A stretch of DNA of 56,933 nt, counting the filler, from Platydemus manokwari (Eukaryota): NCBI GenBank assembly GCA_037951405.1. It is 4 parts of 4 records of this genome, joined end to end, with 100 filler letters (N's around TTAATTAATTAA, not from the genome) between each part and the next. Parts side by side here need not be neighbours in the genome. Positions count along the whole stretch, not along the records: positions 42,028 to 56,933 come from JBBMOY011374758.1; 3 more parts are not named here. One strand, written 5' to 3'. The position numbers and the translations under genes were made by a program. Below the pieces are notes generated by a model, which worked only from the letters and a program-made list of their open reading frames with translations, searched no databases and was not told the DNA's origin. This document shows, in pieces, positions 38,401 to 55,469 of the stretch. How positions within the stretch are numbered: position 1 is the stretch's first letter; every line of letters begins with the position of its first letter.

Positions 38401-39730
38401 AGTTCAATTGACGTAATTTGTTTAATTTAATTAAATTTAAAATAGAGCAAATTTATTAAGAATTTTATTATCAATATTAGCCTTAATTTGGACCAAGGAT
38501 TTAAATTCAATGAATATTCAAACAACACACTCTAATATAACCTTTTTATTCGTAATTAACTCGCATTTATTTATTAATTATTTTATTTAATTAATTATTT
38601 TTATTTAATAGTCGATAATAAATAATAAAACCACTCCCTAAACATATGGATAGAAAAACCAAAATGCTTGAAGAGTCATCCAATGATAATTTGAGACAAT
38701 GATTATTTTGTTTAAATTTTGATTGTTGCTGTGTATTCTATGTTGATGAAGTTTAGTGAAGTATTTTTATAATATAAGTTTAGGATATTTCATTGGTGTT
38801 TAGTGTTTTCGTTGTCGGATCTTTGAATAGTTGAGTAATTTGTTGATAAATATCTTGGAATCGCTATAAATTCCACAATTATGATAATATAATTTTTAAT
38901 GAATTCCTAATCGATATCTTTACTGATTGACTCACGTGCTTGTCTGTATGTCTGTGAAAGCTAATAAAGGATTTTCGAAGTAGTTAATATATTAATTGTG
39001 GTACTATTGAAACTTAACCTACTCTTTTTCTAACGTTTCATTATATAGATTCACACTGAATGAACAACTTTTCCTGATTACTATGTTTTATTTATTACAA
39101 CAATTTTACAGCATATTAATCTCCCCGGGTACAACTCTGATAAGAATTAACAACTGTCCAGAAGTTAGAACACAGTCAAAAATTTCTTTTGACTATACCA
39201 GTACAAACACTACTTCTTGCTGCTATCACTGATTACTCCTGTAACTGTTAGGGTCTCAATAGCACACTCGTTAATTAATTTAAAGTCTCATCTACTTACA
39301 TTGTAATTTTAATTTCTAAAAATAAGCTCAGAAGTGATATTTCTTTTGTTCCAACTGCCCATTTCTTAGATAATACCAAGATGAAATTGAATCATTTTGC
39401 TCATCATTATATCAATCCTTATTTTATGTTAATGTGTATCCATTTATTTTATTTTGTCATAAAGGCTATAATAATAATTATTATTATTATCATTATTATT
39501 AGTTATTTAATTATTTTTTTTAATTATTAATTATTTAATCAGCACATTAATCATTATATTGTTATATTATTGAATTATATTTTATTGGTACTAGTTTTTT
39601 AATAACTATAATTAATAATAATGAAATTTATATAGTAAAAACATAAGTTGTTTCCATCAATATTTTATTTTATTTCAAAATCACACGCGTTTGTTTTTAA
39701 TATTAAAACAAATCTCATTTTTGTTATCTA

Positions 39731-41927
39731 ACTTCCCTCTCCCGTTGTTTTTGAGATCCTTTTTAACCACTCAATTCTTCGAGATTTTGGCTGCCCCTGG
39801 AAACCAAGGAGGACTTGATGTGGGCTTAAAAATTTCAAAACTCTCTGAGAACTTTCATAACGATCTCCATTCTTCTTTATCTTGTGTAGTTCTTTCTTCA
39901 CTAAAACTTCTTCTCCAACTGTGAAAATTCTACAACCTCTTTTTGTAGCATTAAATTTCTTTAAGTTTGTGCCTACTGATTTTAGCTGGTTTTTTGTTTA
40001 TTGGATGATCTGGTCGTGATGGCTTGGTTCATTTAGTCGTGGACATTAATTCTTCGTCCAAACAATATTTCAAAAGGAGAATGTTGAATTGAACTTTGAT
40101 AGGTTGCATTGATGATAAATTTTATCCGCGGTATTAATTTATCCCAAGCCTGTTTCTCTGATGCCATCGTTGTTATCACCATGTCTCTCACCGTCCTAAT
40201 CATCCTTCGGTTAAGCCATTTGTCTTATGTTGGTAAGGAGAGACAAATTCTTGTTTAATTCCAAAACGTATCACTAATTCTTTCATTTCCCTTCTTTCGA
40301 AGACTCTACCCCGATCAGTGAGCATTGATTTTGGGGCATTATACCTATAGATCCATTTATCAATTATGGACTTGGAAATATTTGTTTTGTCTTGTCGAAT
40401 AAGTGGCACCAAGCCTACTAACTTACTGAATCTATCTACAATAACCAACAGATACTTGGTTTTAGTCATAAATTTCGCAAAGTGCGCAACATCTACAACG
40501 ATCTGTTACAGAGGACCAAACCCTTCCTTGGGGATCTTAATCTCTTTAGACTCTCCAGTGTATACCTTCCATTTAGCACAAATATCACAATTCTGTATTC
40601 CATATTCAATGCTTCGTGACAGATTCGATCAGAAGTAAATTTTTTGAATGTAATCAACCAATTTTTTATTACCAATATGCCACAACTCCTCATGAAGGTA
40701 TATTGTAAGTTTCTGCAAATAAACCTCTGGTACAACAATTAGCTTCTTTCCATTCTTATTATACACCACCATATCTTCAAACAACTCATATTTCTCTAAA
40801 CTGTTAAAATATTTGCTTTTCTTGACCACTAAATTAATTTCTGTTCCTGATTTCCCTAACCATTTTTGAATAGAACCAACGACACTTTCTTCTTATTGAA
40901 TCTTCCTTAGTTCGTCATTATTTGCAATTGAATGCTCGACAACATTAATAAACCGGCTTTTTGGTTTACCTTCTTTAGCTGAGTTAAGCATTGTGAACAA
41001 AATGCTTCACCTATCCTTGAAAGTACATGTGCATTTCTATGATCTGATCCTTTCCGATATTGAAGTTCGAAATTGAACCCGGATAAGTTTGAAAACCATG
41101 TTTGAAACTGAGTGCTTATCAGTTTGTTATTTTTTATAATGTATGTCAAGGCTTTGTGATCGGTGCGAGTCACAAATTTCTTTCCCAACAAATAATGTTT
41201 AAAATACATAGTAAGCTTGTGGATTCCCAAAACTCTTTCCTCGTGACGCAATAACTTTTTTCATGATTGTTAAGAGTTCTAGAACCATTGGCCACTACTA
41301 TCTCTTTTCCATTGTCATCCAGCTGACTTAGAACACATTAAATCGCTCCGAAACTAGCATCCGTGTCTAAAATCATCTCTTTGTTTGGATCCTGAAAGGC
41401 CAAAATCCTTAAGGTTTCCAAAACTTTCATCACAATCTGTACTCCACTCCAATTTCTAGTCACTTCCAGTCATCGTCGCATATGACGGAGCCGTAATAAA
41501 TGCATAATCTTTGATAAATCTTCTGTAATAATTGCATAATCTTATGAACGACCTCAATTGAATGATACAACCAGGTTCTATTGCTTCCTTAATCTTCTTT
41601 ACTTTGCCGTTATCAGTTTCTAAACCTTCTGCACTAACCGTATGACCTAGGAAATTCAATTTTCTGGTACCAAAAGTGCATTTCTCGGGATTGATTTTCA
41701 AACCTGATGATTTAATTAACCTGAATATCTTTTCGAGTTTCTCATTGTGTTTCTCTACCGTTCTTTCATACACTAAAATATCATCCAGATAAGCAAGAAC
41801 ACTTTTGTAAATCGAGTCCTTGAATATAGTATTCATTCTGAATCGTTGCGGTACATAATCCAAAAGGTAGTCTGTTAAAACAGAACTGCCCAGTTCTAGT
41901 GCTGAAAGCCGTTTTCATTTTAGAATC
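39731..41927 (-). mobile_element. Decayed Ty3/gypsy LTR retrotransposon, pol region to polypurine tract (5' part lost in gap)
   Basis: Domain order RT-RNaseH-IN. RT: KTAFST..FCFNRLPFG, LAYLDDILVY, INPEKC, FLGH. RNase H: DTDAS..VLSQ, FKHYLLGKKFVTRTDHKAL. Integrase: HEELWHIG, VIVDRFSK, LTDRG, SPYQHKTNGLTE. PPT GGGAGAGGGAAG at 39732-39743. Multiple frameshifts. Confidence 0.95.
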
Positions 41928-48859: not shown

Positions 48860-48999
48860 CTCGACAGATTTAAGGAGCCACCAGCATATGGTCCTATGTG
48901 TGATCTACTGTGGTCAGATCCTTTGGAAGATTTTGGCAATGAGAAAACGTCGGAGCATTTTTGCCACAACAGTGTTCGCGGTTGTTCATACTTTTTCAG
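48860..48999 (+). CDS. PPP3CA: Internal exon of calcineurin A (PP2B catalytic subunit, PPP3C/CanA family)
   Basis: 140-nt exon flanked by TTTTCCAG and GTGATT, encoding [46 protein letters not shown], nearly identical to animal calcineurin A. Neighbouring exons were not found in the window. The symbol denotes the family, not a resolved paralogue. Confidence 0.95.
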
Positions 49000-49854: not shown

Positions 49855-50562
49855 TGTTGGGTCTACCGACTGTAGAGCGCAACAGTTCTCGTAATCACCT
49901 GACTCAAAAATCAAAACAAAGTTGTTGCTCACTAAGTTATATTTCTACAAAATTTACAACTTAGATTTAATTACACAAGGACCTAGCCCCTAATAAAGTT
50001 CTGTCAACAAAATACGGATCAGGTCCGTGCACCAAATTGAATTACTGGCCGAGGACTACTCCTGGTCTATACTACAATACCAGCGTGCGTAACGGTTTAC
50101 GGACGCTCAATATACTCTTCGATACACTACCGATATTCGGAGGCACTGTCCGCGAATATCACTATACAATTTAAATACTAATATTCGGGATTCACTATCC
50201 ACGAATATTCTACTACTAGATAATTTACTGTTTCCAATATTCGGGAATGCTTCTTCCTCGAATAATACACTACTTGCTAAAAATAAAAAGAAATAACCTG
50301 ATTCTTCTAGGCTTCTGATTAAAAACAAATCAAATCTTCTTTTGCAAATTCAAATTAATATTCTTCTTCTAGGCTTCTGATAAAATCCAAATCAAATCTT
50401 CTTTCTTGCTCCTGATTAATTGTTCTGATAGCTTTTTCCTTGCCTGGTTCTGCTAATTGTGACTTGTTCTCCACAAGTCCGTCTTTTTATACTATTCTTG
50501 TGCTCGCACCACTTGCAGCACATTTTTCTAACCTGAGTTGGCATGTAGGTTCAACGCCTACA
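49855..50562 (-). mobile_element. Solo-LTR-like element (708 bp) with internal hairpins and direct repeats
   Basis: Locally GC-richer block bounded on the minus strand by TGTAGG...CCAACA. TATAAAAAG box ~70 nt from the 5' end (50481-50491). A ~43-bp direct repeat at 50301 and 50363; three related hairpins at 50132-50266. No TSD found. Confidence 0.5.
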
Positions 50563-50992
50563 TTTGGATCAATATCACCCGATATTGATCGACAATTACT
50601 GTCTTGAAATCTTGGATTCTATTTAATTATTTTACTTTGCTAAAACAAATTTTATTTTCTAAATATAATTTAAAATTTCTTATTTCTCTTTATTTATCAA
50701 ATATTTTTTTCTTATTAAAAATTTAATTTTAAAATTATTTTTATACTTTATTTATTTTTAGAAAAATAAATTTATTTCCTTTATCTTTAGACTTATGTTT
50801 ATTCTTTAATAATTCACTCTTGTTTATCTTTAATTATTTTTAAAATATGAACTCTTCATTATTATTATTATTATTGTTATTATTATTATTAATATTATTA
50901 GGCGGCATAATAAAACGTTATACGACCTTAAAAATATATAGAGAAATAGGATAGTACAATACATATTTTTAAAAAGTGGTTCTAAACTCAAC

Positions 50993-51700
50993 TCAAAACT
51001 CAGTTCCTTTAACATTTAATACATGTATTTGAACATCAACATTTTCATTGAAAAAATTCTCCGCTTCAGATCGAGTAATCATATCGACAGAGTCCTCCGA
51101 TTCGTCACTCATAATTTCGGTACTCGGTGCAGATACATAGAATCTCGGAATGGGAATCAAATTCTCTTGATTTTCGAAACGATAAGGAAAGTCTTGATCT
51201 TGTTGTCGAGTTTGAAATTTAAATAATTGTTTGTATTCGTTAGAATTTCTACGATTAACATAATATTCAATATCATTATGTATAAGTGGCAATTTCAAAC
51301 ACACATAATGCGGAGTAATTATCAGATAATCAGCAAAACACGCAGGATTAAAACAGCACACAGGCAAAAATCCATGCTTATTTTCATGTCGTGGATAATG
51401 AGGATTACATAAAGTACATGCTTTGTGAAACATAGAATAACTTATACGCTTTACAGTAACCATGCGCTAATTAATACATTGACCAAAAGTATGTTTATTA
51501 TAAAGATTATTATTACAACTAAAACATTTAATCTTCGAAACATATTTTCGTTTACAAATCAAAGGTCGAGATAAAATCAATTGTTGGATTCCGACATTCG
51601 AGCGTCTCCATCGTTCGTATCGTCCAACGTTGGCGATTCCATTTTCAAGGCCACTGGGGTAAGTATGGATTTTCCATTGGCGAGACTGAAGAATCCTTAA
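50993..51700 (-). pseudogene. Cys/His-rich ORF downstream of Rep, one internal stop; function unknown
   Basis: Track ORFs 51467-51754 and 50993-51463 are in the same frame, separated by a single TAG. They contain CFSC...HKACTLC..H...CCFNPAC and an acidic C-terminus (SDESEDS). Start codon uncertain. Confidence 0.55.
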
Positions 51701-52755
51701 TGTACAATAAATCATCAAATTTATGCACGACAGTTCGCCTCTCGATTGCTGCACGGTGTTCTAATAACATTTTGGGCAAACCAGCATCCCAATTGTTGGT
51801 TTTAATAATCCTAGACATGAACATGGGTATTTCTGTGTACCCGTATTTAATATTGCACGAATATTGCCTTTTGAGATCACAAAGGTGGATAATTTCCGTG
51901 GCATGAAATCCCTTGAGCGTAAAATCATCAAAACTATATCATCTGTGATGGAGGGATCTTGTGATACTCGAGATAAGTTTTGAGAACAACTGGCCAAAAT
52001 TGGATTATTAAAATGAGATAAAGCATAATTAGTTTTCTCGATTCCAGTATGCCCTTGAAAGATGTGCGTTCTCCCATCTCATACATTTAAAGGAGGATTT
52101 TTGAACTTGTGATAATTTTTTTTGGCTGGCTCTCCATAATGAGTTGTAAGAGTTTCATTTATAGCTTTTCTTTTAAGCATAAATTCTTTCGGGTCAGAAG
52201 TTCTCAACAATAGCATTGCTTCATTTTTATTTTTACAATTATAGGCCATCCGCCATGGATTATTACAATCAACATCTTTGATTGAATTTGAAGAAGAACC
52301 AGATTGCCCGTCATTTGCCATTGTATTTTTAAAAAAAACACTCGTTGCTTTGACATTATCGAGCCGCTTATTGGTAGTTGTACCCAATTGACTAATTTGA
52401 ATTGGAGGATATTCTTTCAATCTGGTTTCGTCTTTTTGCGTGTACTCAAAAACTTTAATTTTATCTTTACCTGAAGATTAAAACAACGATAATTAATCAT
52501 AACCAAATTATCCCCAGAATTAACCAACCTGGATTTGGTTTCACTTAGTTGACTCCCAATAAGTTTCTGGCCGTGCCGAAAAACATGGCATACTTCATTA
52601 CTAGAAATATTGCACGTGTTCGAAATTCTTTTCAGACATTTCAACTTGCCCATAGAAATAGGTGCAATTTTTGGTCCTTATTTCCATAAATTTGTCTCGC
52701 ATCAACTCGAAATCATCATTATTATTATTATTATGGATTCGACTTGCTATCGCTT
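51645..52755 (-). pseudogene. rep: Endogenous CRESS-DNA-virus-like Rep (HUH endonuclease + SF3 helicase), decayed, with one putative intron (52471-52528)
   Basis: Reconstructed motifs in the canonical order: motif-I-like RIHNN; YFYGQVE; motif II EHVQY (52610-52618); motif III EYTQKDETR (52433-52444); Walker A GHTGIEKT (52031-52054); Walker B IVFDD (~51930); IIHLCD..NIKY..IP; motif C IIKTN; Arg finger AIERR; stop at 51645. Two in-frame stops and two 1-nt frameshifts. Confidence 0.88.
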
Positions 52756-54582
52756 ATTAATTCACTTTAGTAATTTTTTGATTTGAAGACGTTATATTAC
52801 ACTTAATACTTTGAAGTTTATTTTAATTCATAGCGGCTTTTAAAATTTATACAGAAATTCTGGTTAAAGTTAAGAAGTGAAATCCTAAAAAAATTTGAAA
52901 TTTGTTGTTTGTGTTGCAAAAAAGTTTATTTAATTATACTGATTAAAAACATTTTGAATTTTTTATTTGAGTACCTAAGCAGAATTTTAGTTGTTTGGAA
53001 TCAAATATTAAATAACTAGAGCTTTAAAATCTTGTAGAAATTGATTATTTAAAAAACGGCTCAAAGTATGCCAAATAGCAATTTATTGAAAATTAGTGAT
53101 AACCACATTTTTAAAATCGTTAATCCATATTTTTAAACTTTGTTTTATATTAAAAGTGATTGGAGAAATAATAATGCATCGAAATATAATCGGTGCCGAA
53201 ATATCATATTGAAACTAATGAGGTCTTCTTCGAAAGGGTAAAGTGTAAGCGCGATGGACGAAGACCAAGTATTTGGGTTGCTGAAGGATTCATATGATGC
53301 AATAAGAGGAATTTCAATCGAATTCCAGAAATTTTATGTGAAAATTTTATATAATAACGTTAGAAATAAATTTTGAAATTAAACACACGAAAATTTATGA
53401 ATTTACTTAACCGAAATTCTTGATGAAATTAATCCACATTATTCTTGAATAATTATATTTTGTACATATTATAGTAATATATATTCCTAAACAATTTTCA
53501 TTGATAAAATACCAATTTTCAAACCAAAACACATACTGATCATGAATCGTGGGCTTGACTTAAGTAAGATTGAATTTAATTTTATGAAATGATAAGATAA
53601 TATGACTGATATTGAGAATGATTGTAAATTGTGGATAAATCCATTTGTATTCAGTGGAATTGATTAATTCTAAAAATAAAACACATCAAAATATAACAAA
53701 TCAACTTTCATATACAATATGAAATTATTTTGGAAGAGTTAAGAAAATTATTTAATTGCTATTTCAATAAAGATAAACAAATCTCATTTGCCCTTAAACT
53801 ATATCCTTAAGCATCATTTGTGTACTCAATATCAAATTGCAACGAATTATACTAGTCGTCTCATAATGCTGGTATAATTTTTTGTATCTATCGATAATTA
53901 GATTAATTTTATAACAGAATGAATATATTTCGATATTTCGTTTTGGTTTATTTTTGAAAAATATAAGTTCTACAATACTAACGAAAAATCAGACAATAAT
54001 ATTCGATGAAGACTACCGCTAATGATAATAATATTACATGATTACATAAATCATCAATAAATCCCATTAATCCCATAAATTGTTCAGGGAAATTCGGCTT
54101 TCGCTTTGTTAATAGTAAATATATTACCCATGAAATATACAATGGTTTCCTGTTTCAATAAATTAAACATCTTTTACTGATTATTTCTGAAGAATTTAAT
54201 TTCTAACAAATACTACATGGTTTGTTTTAGATAAATTTCATTTAATTTTATTCTCGAATTTTTATCTTTTTGAAATGGATTTTTAAATATTTATTTAATG
54301 AAAAATTTATTATTTATTAGTGATTTTCTAAGTCAACGAGGCTCTTGCTAGAAATAAAATTGAATAAAATTTATTGAATAAATATTATATTTATTGAAAA
54401 CAATACAAAGGGATTTTATTAGATTCTTCATCCCCATTTATAATAACACCAACACATACAATTTATAATAAATGTAGTATGTTTCGTAAACATTATCATA
54501 ATATATATAGTAAAAACATCGATTGTTTGCATCAAAATTTATGGTTTCTAAAATAACACGAGTTTTTTCGCATATCTAAAGT

Positions 54583-54668
54583 TTATCTAACCTTCTCTCC
54601 CGTTGTTTTTGAGATCTTTTTAGCGATTCAATTCTTCTATAATTTGGTTGTTCCTGGTAATCAAGAAG
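54583..54668 (-). mobile_element. Second fragment of the same gypsy family (PPT/3' end)
   Basis: TTATCTAACCTTCTCTCCCGTTGTTTTTGAGATCTTTTTAGCGATTCAATTCTTC closely matches 39724-39810. Confidence 0.8.
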
Positions 54669-55469
54669 CGGGAATTTAATAACTCAATTTTTTGAATTTT
54701 TTGCTGGTTAATTTACTTTTAGAAACTATATATAAGAACAGCTATTATTAAAAATCTTATGCCTCTTTTCCTCACTCAGTTGAGGCCTAGATATATCTTA
54801 AATTGGATTATAAAAGTCAAATTCGAATCCTCAAATATGTAATTATTATTTTATTTTATTAATTTTTAATAACTTTACCATAAAAATAAAAACCTGTCAT
54901 TATAAAAGTGATAATAGAAACGAGAATAGTAACAATGGTAATAATAATGATAATACAAATAAAACACAAATTACAAATAAATAAAACTCTGATATTTGCG
55001 ATCAATGGTTGATCGTTCCATAATTAAGCTGATTGTAACCCAGTAGCAAAAACACAGTTCATTAATTGCTACATAAGCTATTGAAAATGCAATTAAATTT
55101 CACAACTAGTGTTATTTTCTTTTTATAGCTTAAATAATTTATAGGAACCATACCTGGATAATAGAATTAATAACCTCTCTCGAGGAGGACAGTTTGAATA
55201 ATCTTAATGTGCTGATATTAATAAAATAAAGTTTAAACATATTAGGAAATTTCGTAAAGGAAATATTAATAATAATTTTTAGCCTCTACTATTTTAAAAA
55301 CCACTCATTAAAAATAAACTGAAAAGTCAAGACACCACAAATCTATTTTAATACAAATAATTAAACAAATAAATATAATTTTATATAAATATGATTTTAT
55401 ATTAAATCCGAATTAAATTATAAATAAAATTTTAATTATGTAAAATTTTAATTCACAAAAAATTTAATT

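What the first reader, a model, noticed from the sequence alone, without database searches (positions are those of the whole stretch)
51645..52755. Hidden endogenous CRESS-virus-like Rep (HUH + SF3 helicase) in an animal genome
Seen in sequence: stitching minus-strand frames across two stops and two 1-nt frameshifts gives RIHNN...YFYGQVE..EHVQY...EYTQKDETR...EAMLLLRTSDPKEF...GHTGIEKT..ALSHFNNP...IVFDD...IIHLCD...NIKY..IP...IIKTN...AIERR. Established: this is the motif set and order of rolling-circle Rep proteins of Cressdnaviricota, and differs from Helitrons, which use a Pif1/SF1 helicase. Inference: germline integration of an ssDNA virus or a Rep-encoding plasmid-like or transposable element, possibly from an undescribed lineage. 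The ORF track breaks it into unrelated-looking pieces.
Basis: partly seen in the sequence, partly recalled or inferred. Interest (0 to 1): 0.88.

Follow-up and report, generated by a model that had tools for sequence, protein, structure and literature searches.

The report
Fossil spliced virus Rep in animal
A broken copy of a single-stranded-DNA-virus replication gene (nickase plus helicase) lies in an animal's DNA, likely left by an old infection with an unclassified lineage whose Rep genes are predicted to be spliced and whose one full-length in-clade genome found here has inverted ends, so is likely linear rather than circular.

Summary
The Rep is real. All quoted motifs lie in order on the minus strand at 52753-51645. 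Pfam misses each piece, but a 1.8-billion-protein search found 14 Rep-like relatives whose profile hits the locus at E 4.5e-27 and 3.9e-21. The gene is dead: two stops, two frameshifts, an altered Walker A. A family-less, Cys/His-rich 157-codon ORF follows it. No capsid, origin hairpin or terminal repeat was found. An animal calcineurin A exon lies 1.9 kb away. Nuclease, helicase and full-length trees place it in one clade (98/93 to 100/99) apart from the environmental capsid-bearing CRESS genomes tested. That clade holds unnamed Logan proteins, three soil-metagenome copies with predicted introns (one inside a eukaryotic retrotransposon) and L023, a 5.7-kb genome with 243-nt terminal inverted repeats resembling the planarian element PEVE. 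Verdict: an endogenous fossil of an unclassified ssDNA virus-like lineage. Endogenous Reps are common; the lineage is the interesting part. Junction reads and copy number could not be tested.

The parts
50900..52755 (-). Approximate extent of the foreign insert (Rep + ORF2)
   Evidence: GC 0.35 (Rep) and 0.32 (ORF2 region) against 0.10 and 0.22 in the flanks and 0.26 for the window; ends not resolved to the base
52604..52753 (-). Rep piece 1: degenerate motif I region with an AAT microsatellite, and HUQ-type motif II (His codon at 52618). No start codon found; two stops lie directly upstream
   Evidence: (iE 1.3e-5)
52603..52606 (-). Break 1: frameshift just after motif II, in a short homopolymer run
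52529..52604 (-). Rep piece 2 (between motifs II and III), with a premature stop at 52547-52545
   Evidence: 35.4 bits with this piece; 0 of 200 shuffles of it reached that score
52471..52528 (-). Predicted 58-nt spliceosomal intron (GT...AG, pyrimidine-rich acceptor; the same five bases CAGGT stand at both ends)
   Evidence: no RNA evidence
51935..52470 (-). Rep piece 3: motif III (Tyr codon at 52444), linker, helical oligomerisation region, premature stop at 52081-52079, altered Walker A
   Evidence: (P0007: 37% over 115 aa)
51933..51935 (-). Break 2: frameshift inside Walker B, in a short homopolymer run
51645..51932 (-). Rep piece 4: end of Walker B, motif B', motif C, arginine finger, stop
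   Evidence: (iE 3.9e-21)
50993..51466 (-). ORF2: 157 open codons (Met at 51463), Cys/His cluster then acidic tail, no known family. The same frame is open upstream (51760-51470) apart from one stop at 51469-51467
   Evidence: (1 of 2000 shuffles as long)
52925..53032 (.). Host-type repeat (84% over 110 nt to 19650-19758), about 170 nt upstream of Rep
48860..48999 (+). Host context: intact internal exon of animal-type calcineurin A with AG/GT ends. The element lies antisense, probably in the following intron
   Evidence: (E 6e-28; 98 bits to the alpha-isoform chains, 78-80 to the next group); no later exon found by word search

Best explanation
The locus is a broken HUH-nuclease plus SF3-helicase Rep gene with a second, family-less ORF, likely integrated into the animal's germline from an unclassified ssDNA virus or virus-like element and likely inert today. 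Shown: domain order and motifs, the breaks, placement in one clade by both domains, absence of a recognisable capsid, origin or terminal repeat, and the neighbouring host exon. Inferred from established CRESS biology: in the donor a spliced Rep mRNA gave a protein that nicked the origin through its motif III tyrosine and unwound the template as an SF3 ring. Inferred: a fragment of the replicating DNA was captured in the nucleus by Rep-mediated or illegitimate joining, antisense in a calcineurin A intron, and decayed neutrally. Inferred more weakly: the donor was linear with inverted ends like L023, and ORF2 was a zinc-binding accessory regulator.
For:: 15 hits at E<=1e-3, 14 sharing the helicase motifs. 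Viral_Rep in 5 of 15 (one above the curated cut-off), Gemini_AL1 in 1; profile iE 4.5e-27 and 3.9e-21; clade profile matches PCV2 Rep (1e-6) and nanovirus Rep nuclease (5e-5); the folded relative P0004 (pLDDT 81.5) matches vientovirus Rep, the FBNYV nuclease (TM 0.77 on the target) and the PCV2 ATPase. Trees: helicase 98/98, nuclease 98/93, full length 100/99. Decay: two stops, two frameshifts, and substitutions at two positions invariant in 10 of 10 relatives shown. Predicted GT-AG introns in 4 of 4 in-clade DNA loci (L017, L018, L019, L023). L017's Rep interrupts a Ulp1/RT retrotransposon, so the clade does enter eukaryotic DNA. Host exon and host repeat beside the element.
Against: No direct Pfam or PDB sequence hit for any window piece. 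No capsid in the window, so viral origin rests on relatives, and L023's candidate capsid is unproven. Junction reads and copy number untested. Both frameshifts lie in short homopolymer runs and could be sequencing errors (the stops and substitutions would remain). The subgroup with L023 has only 88/95 and 91/85 support and is unresolved in the helicase tree. In the viral-structure search three Reps named as circular-DNA or CRESS viruses outrank the PEVE Rep for P0004 and could not be put in the tree, so the clade may include circular viruses. The intron has no RNA support and could be an insertion with a 5-base duplication.
Confidence: 0.7

Rival explanations
1. Remnant of a capsid-less eukaryotic transposon that moves with a CRESS-type HUH + SF3 Rep, a helicase-retaining counterpart of Replitrons and Helitrons.
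For: Three divergent copies (L017-L019) come from one soil metagenome; none shows a capsid on the DNA held; L017 sits inside a non-LTR retrotransposon and is followed by tandem repeats. Intron positions vary across the clade, as in long-resident nuclear elements. All 10 relatives looked up come from Logan/ENA assemblies and none carries a name.
Against: In-clade L023/L024 carries 626- and 277-codon ORFs on the opposite strand and is held in a viral collection. No terminal repeat or hairpin at the window's ends. No second copy in 57 kb. L018 and L019 are too short (1.2-1.3 kb) to show absence of a capsid.
Confidence: 0.15
2. Endogenous fragment of a conventional circular CRESS virus of a classified family or of the crucivirus-type environmental group.
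For: Same general helicase type as 16 IMG/VR genomes, many with capsid-like ORFs and terminal direct repeats. Top structural matches of P0004 are named CRESS or circular-DNA virus Reps at 24-34% identity.
Against: Three trees separate the window's clade from those genomes. An AU test rejects grouping it with 6 of them, p=0.012 (the group was chosen after seeing the tree). No origin hairpin near the element.
Confidence: 0.08
3. Assembly chimera: exogenous viral DNA mis-joined to host sequence, with the frameshifts being read errors.
For: Both frameshifts lie in homopolymer runs; junction reads could not be examined.
Against: Two premature stops and substitutions at invariant helicase positions do not fit a replicating virus. 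There is no N gap between 47652 and the window end. A host repeat lies 170 nt upstream.
Confidence: 0.05

Closest known systems
Planarian extrachromosomal virus-like element (PEVE; Rep Q910M2) and the L023/L024 genome
   Same: L023's Rep is in the window's clade. The fold of relative P0004 matches Q910M2 at E 2e-18. L023's Met-initiated Rep frame is 272 aa, the length listed for Q910M2. Liu 2011 (PMC3198968, Fig. 5 legend and section 8) draws TIRs in its comparison with PEVE and says PEVE has not been found integrated.
   Different: The window copy sits in host-like DNA, is broken, has no TIR, no opposite-strand ORFs, a different intron position and an unrelated ORF2. No sequence comparison with Q910M2 was possible, and the PEVE paper was not available (what I say of its circovirus-like Rep is recalled).
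Endogenous CRESS-virus Rep elements of invertebrates (Liu 2011: 302 Rep-like sequences in 35 eukaryotes, e.g. Hydra 18, salmon louse 59, Varroa 56)
   Same: Rep-only, degraded by stops and frameshifts, in non-coding host DNA (PMC3198968 sections 6-8).
   Different: The word 'intron' does not occur in that paper's main text and its Table 1 lists no flatworm; the window's lineage could not be matched to any listed group (supplements not read).
Unclassified environmental CRESS viruses and cruciviruses (L001-L016), Circoviridae and Nanoviridae Reps
   Same: HUQ-type nuclease closest to nanovirus/circovirus structures; SF3 helicase with arginine finger.
   Different: Separate, strongly supported clade with its own motif I and B' patterns; no capsid or stem-loop origin in the window.
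Replitrons (Craig 2023, PMC10288648) and Helitrons
   Same: HUH nuclease in a eukaryotic genome; Replitrons share the Y1/HUQ type.
   Different: Replitrons lack a helicase; Helitrons have a Y2 Rep and an SF1B helicase; the window has a fused SF3 helicase.

Membership tests
Cressdnaviricota (CRESS-DNA viruses) | Rep with N-terminal Y1 HUH nuclease fused to SF3 helicase | tested here: met
Cressdnaviricota (CRESS-DNA viruses) | Circular ssDNA genome | not testable with these tools
   Integrated fragment; the one full-length in-clade genome has 243-nt terminal inverted repeats
Cressdnaviricota (CRESS-DNA viruses) | Nonanucleotide on a stem-loop origin | tested here: not met
   37 nonanucleotide-like matches are scattered over the AT-rich window; the two nearest do not sit on a hairpin. 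It may have been lost on integration
Cressdnaviricota (CRESS-DNA viruses) | Jelly-roll capsid gene | tested here: inconclusive
   ORF2 matches no family and no ORF of the fetched capsid-bearing loci; its fold was unusable
Cressdnaviricota (CRESS-DNA viruses) | Rep nests within a classified family | not tested
   No labelled ICTV reference set was available; trees used unlabelled IMG/VR, JGI and Logan rows
PEVE-type linear elements (L023/L024) | Rep in the same clade | tested here: met
   (clade 98-100; direct subgroup 88/95, not starred)
PEVE-type linear elements (L023/L024) | Terminal inverted repeats and opposite-strand ORFs | tested here: not met
   None in the window; the insert is a fragment
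Parvoviridae NS1 | Parvo_NS1-type nuclease and helicase sequence | tested here: not met
   Relatives hit Viral_Rep, never Parvo_NS1; the clade profile's significant PDB hits are circovirus and nanovirus Reps. By fold alone AAV Rep68 also scores, and Parvo_NS1 was a weak Atlas lead
Helitron | Y2 Rep fused to Pif1/SF1B helicase | tested here: not met
   Helicase is SF3
Replitron | HUH transposase without a helicase; short terminal direct repeats | tested here: not met
   Fused SF3 helicase present; no terminal repeat found
pCRESS / bacterial plasmid Reps | Occurrence on plasmids or in prokaryotic genomes | tested here: not met
   No match in 72,556 plasmids; GTDB scan gave 1 locus, a 976-nt MAG contig closest to out-group rows

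The most novel reading that the evidence does not exclude
The locus is a genomic fossil of an undescribed, widespread lineage of invertebrate ssDNA viruses that pair a spliced CRESS-type Rep with a linear, inverted-repeat-ended genome and a parvovirus-like capsid: a living counterpart of the proposed step from CRESS viruses to parvoviruses, which also colonises host genomes in multiple copies.
Probability: 0.22. Interest if true: 0.82.

Novelty: new variant of a known kind. Interest (0 to 1): 0.45.

Why it matters
Endogenous CRESS Reps in invertebrates are common, so the fossil alone is modest. Its value is as a host record for an unclassified Rep clade known otherwise from unnamed contigs and one PEVE-like genome. 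Predicted introns at five different positions suggest that ORF-based annotation truncates or misses these Reps, including motif I of L023. If the clade is linear with a parvovirus-like capsid, it would make the proposed origin of parvoviruses from CRESS viruses (Kazlauskas 2019, PMC6668415) testable. If it is capsid-less, it would be a Rep-SF3 transposon group not found in my searches.

Tried and rejected
No whole genome is held, so copy number was not tested. Pfam on 7 element pieces: 0 hits; on 13 other window ORFs: nothing significant. PDB sequence search of two pieces: chance hits only. Word-indexed protein searches with window pieces: 0 hits among 15 and 92 candidates. IMG/VR scans with the C-terminal piece and ORF2: none. 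Atlas: SF3/AAA+ families at 0.80-0.84 for the helicase piece and unnamed arthropod/Mucoromycota clusters at 0.85-0.87 for ORF2, leads only. ORF2 single-sequence fold: pLDDT 37, not searched. Parvovirus-capsid test of the 277-codon L023 ORF: no Pfam or PDB hit; a profile of 14 fetched parvoviral VP stretches gave 3.6 bits, E 0.78 among 617 ORFs, 0 of 500 shuffles as high, aligned on the motif seen by eye: inconclusive. Alternative readings of 52603-52471 (three frames without an intron) scored 21.9-25.3 bits against 35.4. Terminal repeats and origin hairpin: none. Domesticated host gene: rejected because of the breaks. In one search the first exon of L023 was read in the wrong frame; one search corrects it with the same grouping. 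Rows left out of trees: L011, L014 (truncated), L018, L019, L024; P0007; P0011 (ankyrin) throughout. Three look-ups of earlier findings returned nothing. Literature searches found no paper describing this clade; the library lacks most subscription journals and Repbase.

Full report
Observation. No single piece is recognised directly: 0 of 7 element pieces hit Pfam, and two pieces gave only chance hits in the PDB. A search of the 97-aa C-terminal piece against 1.84 billion representatives returned 15 proteins at E<=1e-3. Fourteen share SF3 motifs; one is an ankyrin protein. Five of the 15 carry Viral_Rep (one above the curated cut-off) and one carries Gemini_AL1. All 14 map back to the locus by tblastn, and 11 of 14 also match the upstream Walker-A piece that was not the query. 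A profile of seven of them scores iE 4.5e-27 (52684-51929) and 3.9e-21 (51929-51690); the best other site in the window scores 1.7. A nuclease-only profile finds motif II at iE 1.3e-5.

Anatomy. Reading with X at every break, the gene has four pieces: a frameshift just after motif II (about 52605), a stop at 52547-52545, a 58-nt GT-AG segment (52528-52471), a stop at 52081-52079 and a frameshift inside Walker B (about 51934). The 58-nt segment is best read as an intron. Motif II His to motif III Tyr spans 58 codons in the raw DNA, 38.7 without it, and 36-47 in 24 of 24 full-length relatives. The nuclease profile scores 35.4 bits on this reading against 21.9-25.3 on three others, and 0 of 200 shuffles of the intervening piece reach it. 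No RNA confirms the intron, and the same five bases flank both ends, so a small insertion with a duplication is not excluded. Two helicase positions invariant in 10 of 10 relatives shown, one in Walker A, are altered. Motif I is degenerate and no start codon was found. The gene is therefore very unlikely to work. Downstream on the same strand lies ORF2, 157 open codons; 1 of 2000 dinucleotide shuffles gave a frame as long. It has a Cys/His cluster and an acidic tail but no family and no usable fold. Reading it as a zinc-binding accessory regulator is an analogy recalled from geminivirus and densovirus accessory proteins, not a result. Rep and ORF2 form a GC island (0.35, 0.32) between flanks of 0.10 and 0.22. 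No terminal repeat, origin hairpin or capsid was found.

Host context. The window is 26% GC and holds Ty3/Gypsy RT, RNase H and integrase remnants, a host repeat 170 nt upstream of Rep and an intact internal exon of calcineurin A at 48860-48999 with proper splice ends (E 6e-28). No later exon was found by word search, so the element probably lies antisense in an intron of that gene. There is no N gap from 47652 to the window end.

Relatives. All 10 protein relatives looked up are unnamed Logan or ENA products; a profile search added four more. A JGI scan gave 6 loci, of which three from one soil metagenome are in-clade. L017's Rep interrupts a Ulp1/reverse-transcriptase retrotransposon. L018 and L019 are frameshifted copies. 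All three show a GT-AG segment at the same position and phase just before motif I (48, 45 and 80 nt); L017 and L018 show another at the arginine finger and L019 one after motif C (read by eye). An IMG/VR scan gave 4 loci, of which L023 is in-clade, 45% identical to L017 over 273 aa. Its 5699-nt contig (L024) has 243-nt terminal inverted repeats at 98% identity, Rep on one strand with a predicted 56-nt intron between motifs I and II, and 626- and 277-codon ORFs on the other. Whether the 277-codon ORF is a parvovirus-like capsid stayed inconclusive.

Placement. The helicase tree (37 rows) puts the window in a 16-row clade at 98/98; the nuclease tree (28 rows) in a 13-row clade at 98/93; the full-length tree (26 rows) in a 14-row clade at 100/99, within it with P0007, L023 and L017-L019 at 88/95. 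The environmental genomes with capsid-like ORFs fall outside, and an AU test rejects joining the window to six of them (p=0.012, group chosen after seeing the tree). The trees are unrooted and hold no labelled ICTV references. The clade profile matches PCV2 Rep (1e-6) and nanovirus Rep nuclease (5e-5). The model of relative P0004 (pLDDT 81.5) matches vientovirus Rep, the FBNYV nuclease and the PCV2 ATPase, and also AAV Rep68. Among viral models its best matches are unclassified CRESS Reps, with the PEVE Rep Q910M2 at rank 12 (E 2e-18, 272 aa); L023's Met-initiated frame is also 272 aa. The higher-ranked Reps are named as CRESS or circular-DNA viruses and could not be fetched, so a linear genome may not hold for the whole clade. 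No plasmid matched, and the single GTDB hit is an out-group Rep on a 976-nt MAG contig.

Mechanism. Shown: domains, motifs, breaks, clade, missing capsid and origin, host neighbourhood. From established knowledge of CRESS Reps: tyrosine-mediated nicking at an origin and SF3 unwinding. Inferred: splicing, capture of a fragment in the germline nucleus, neutral decay. Weakly inferred: a linear donor and a regulatory ORF2. I put 0.70 on a viral or virus-like fossil, 0.15 on a Rep-SF3 transposon remnant, 0.08 on a classified circular virus and 0.05 on an assembly chimera.

Literature. Liu 2011 (PMC3198968; passages and sections 6 and 8) lists 302 endogenous Rep-like sequences in 35 eukaryotes, mostly degraded, and says PEVE was not found integrated; its supplements were not read and may bear on whether this clade was seen. 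Kazlauskas 2018 (PMC5923481; parts 2 and 3 of 4) reports chimeric Reps in about 71% of unclassified viruses; here both domains agree. Kazlauskas 2019 (PMC6668415; passages) proposes that parvoviruses arose from CRESS viruses. Craig 2023 (PMC10288648; passages) defines Replitrons as lacking a helicase. Rosario 2018 (PMC6186406; passages) notes intron-interrupted Reps in arthropod-associated CRESS genomes, so splicing alone is not new. PMC9241645 and PMC10269781 (passages) cite PEVE without detail. The PEVE genome paper was not held; what I say about its Rep is recalled. Nine searches found no description of this clade.

Verdict. A real, dead endogenous Rep: an ordinary kind of fossil from an unusual, unclassified lineage. 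New variant of a known kind; interest 0.45.

Noticed in passing
L024 1-5699 (= L023 contig): Ambisense genome with 243-nt terminal inverted repeats, genes diverging from the centre, a CRESS-type Rep whose motif I lies in a predicted upstream exon, and a 277-codon ORF (4660-5490) with a weak, unproven likeness to parvovirus capsid.
   Followed up: partly
L017 about 1700-3600: In-clade Rep with two predicted introns inserted into a Ulp1/zinc-finger/RT non-LTR retrotransposon whose RT core appears missing; about three tandem repeats of ~118 nt follow the Rep.
   Followed up: partly
window 48860-48999 (+): Isolated internal exon of calcineurin A; no neighbouring exon was found by word search within the window, implying long introns.
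   Followed up: partly
window 40200-41914 (-): Broken Ty3/Gypsy pol: RT (5e-14), RNase H (3e-9), integrase (7e-12), next to an N gap.
   Followed up: partly
window 16786-17730 (-): Intronless 314-codon ORF with several hydrophobic segments, GPCR-like by eye, but no Pfam hit at E<=1.
   Followed up: no
window 49900-50600 and 53100-53300: GC- and CpG-richer patches on both sides of the element with short open frames and no Pfam hit; possibly further mobile-element remnants. A 62-nt tandem duplication lies at 50291-50404.
   Followed up: partly
window 39625-39811 / 54500-54668, and 4305-4390 / 5889-5967 / 55262-55351: Two further families of short dispersed host repeats (73-84% identity).
   Followed up: no
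P0005, P0006: In-clade helicases whose N-terminal region lacks a recognisable motif II and whose C-terminus has a long Cys/His-rich extension; possibly derived or domesticated Reps.
   Followed up: no
L004 1-4180: Contig with two similar but distinct Rep/capsid units in tandem.
   Followed up: no
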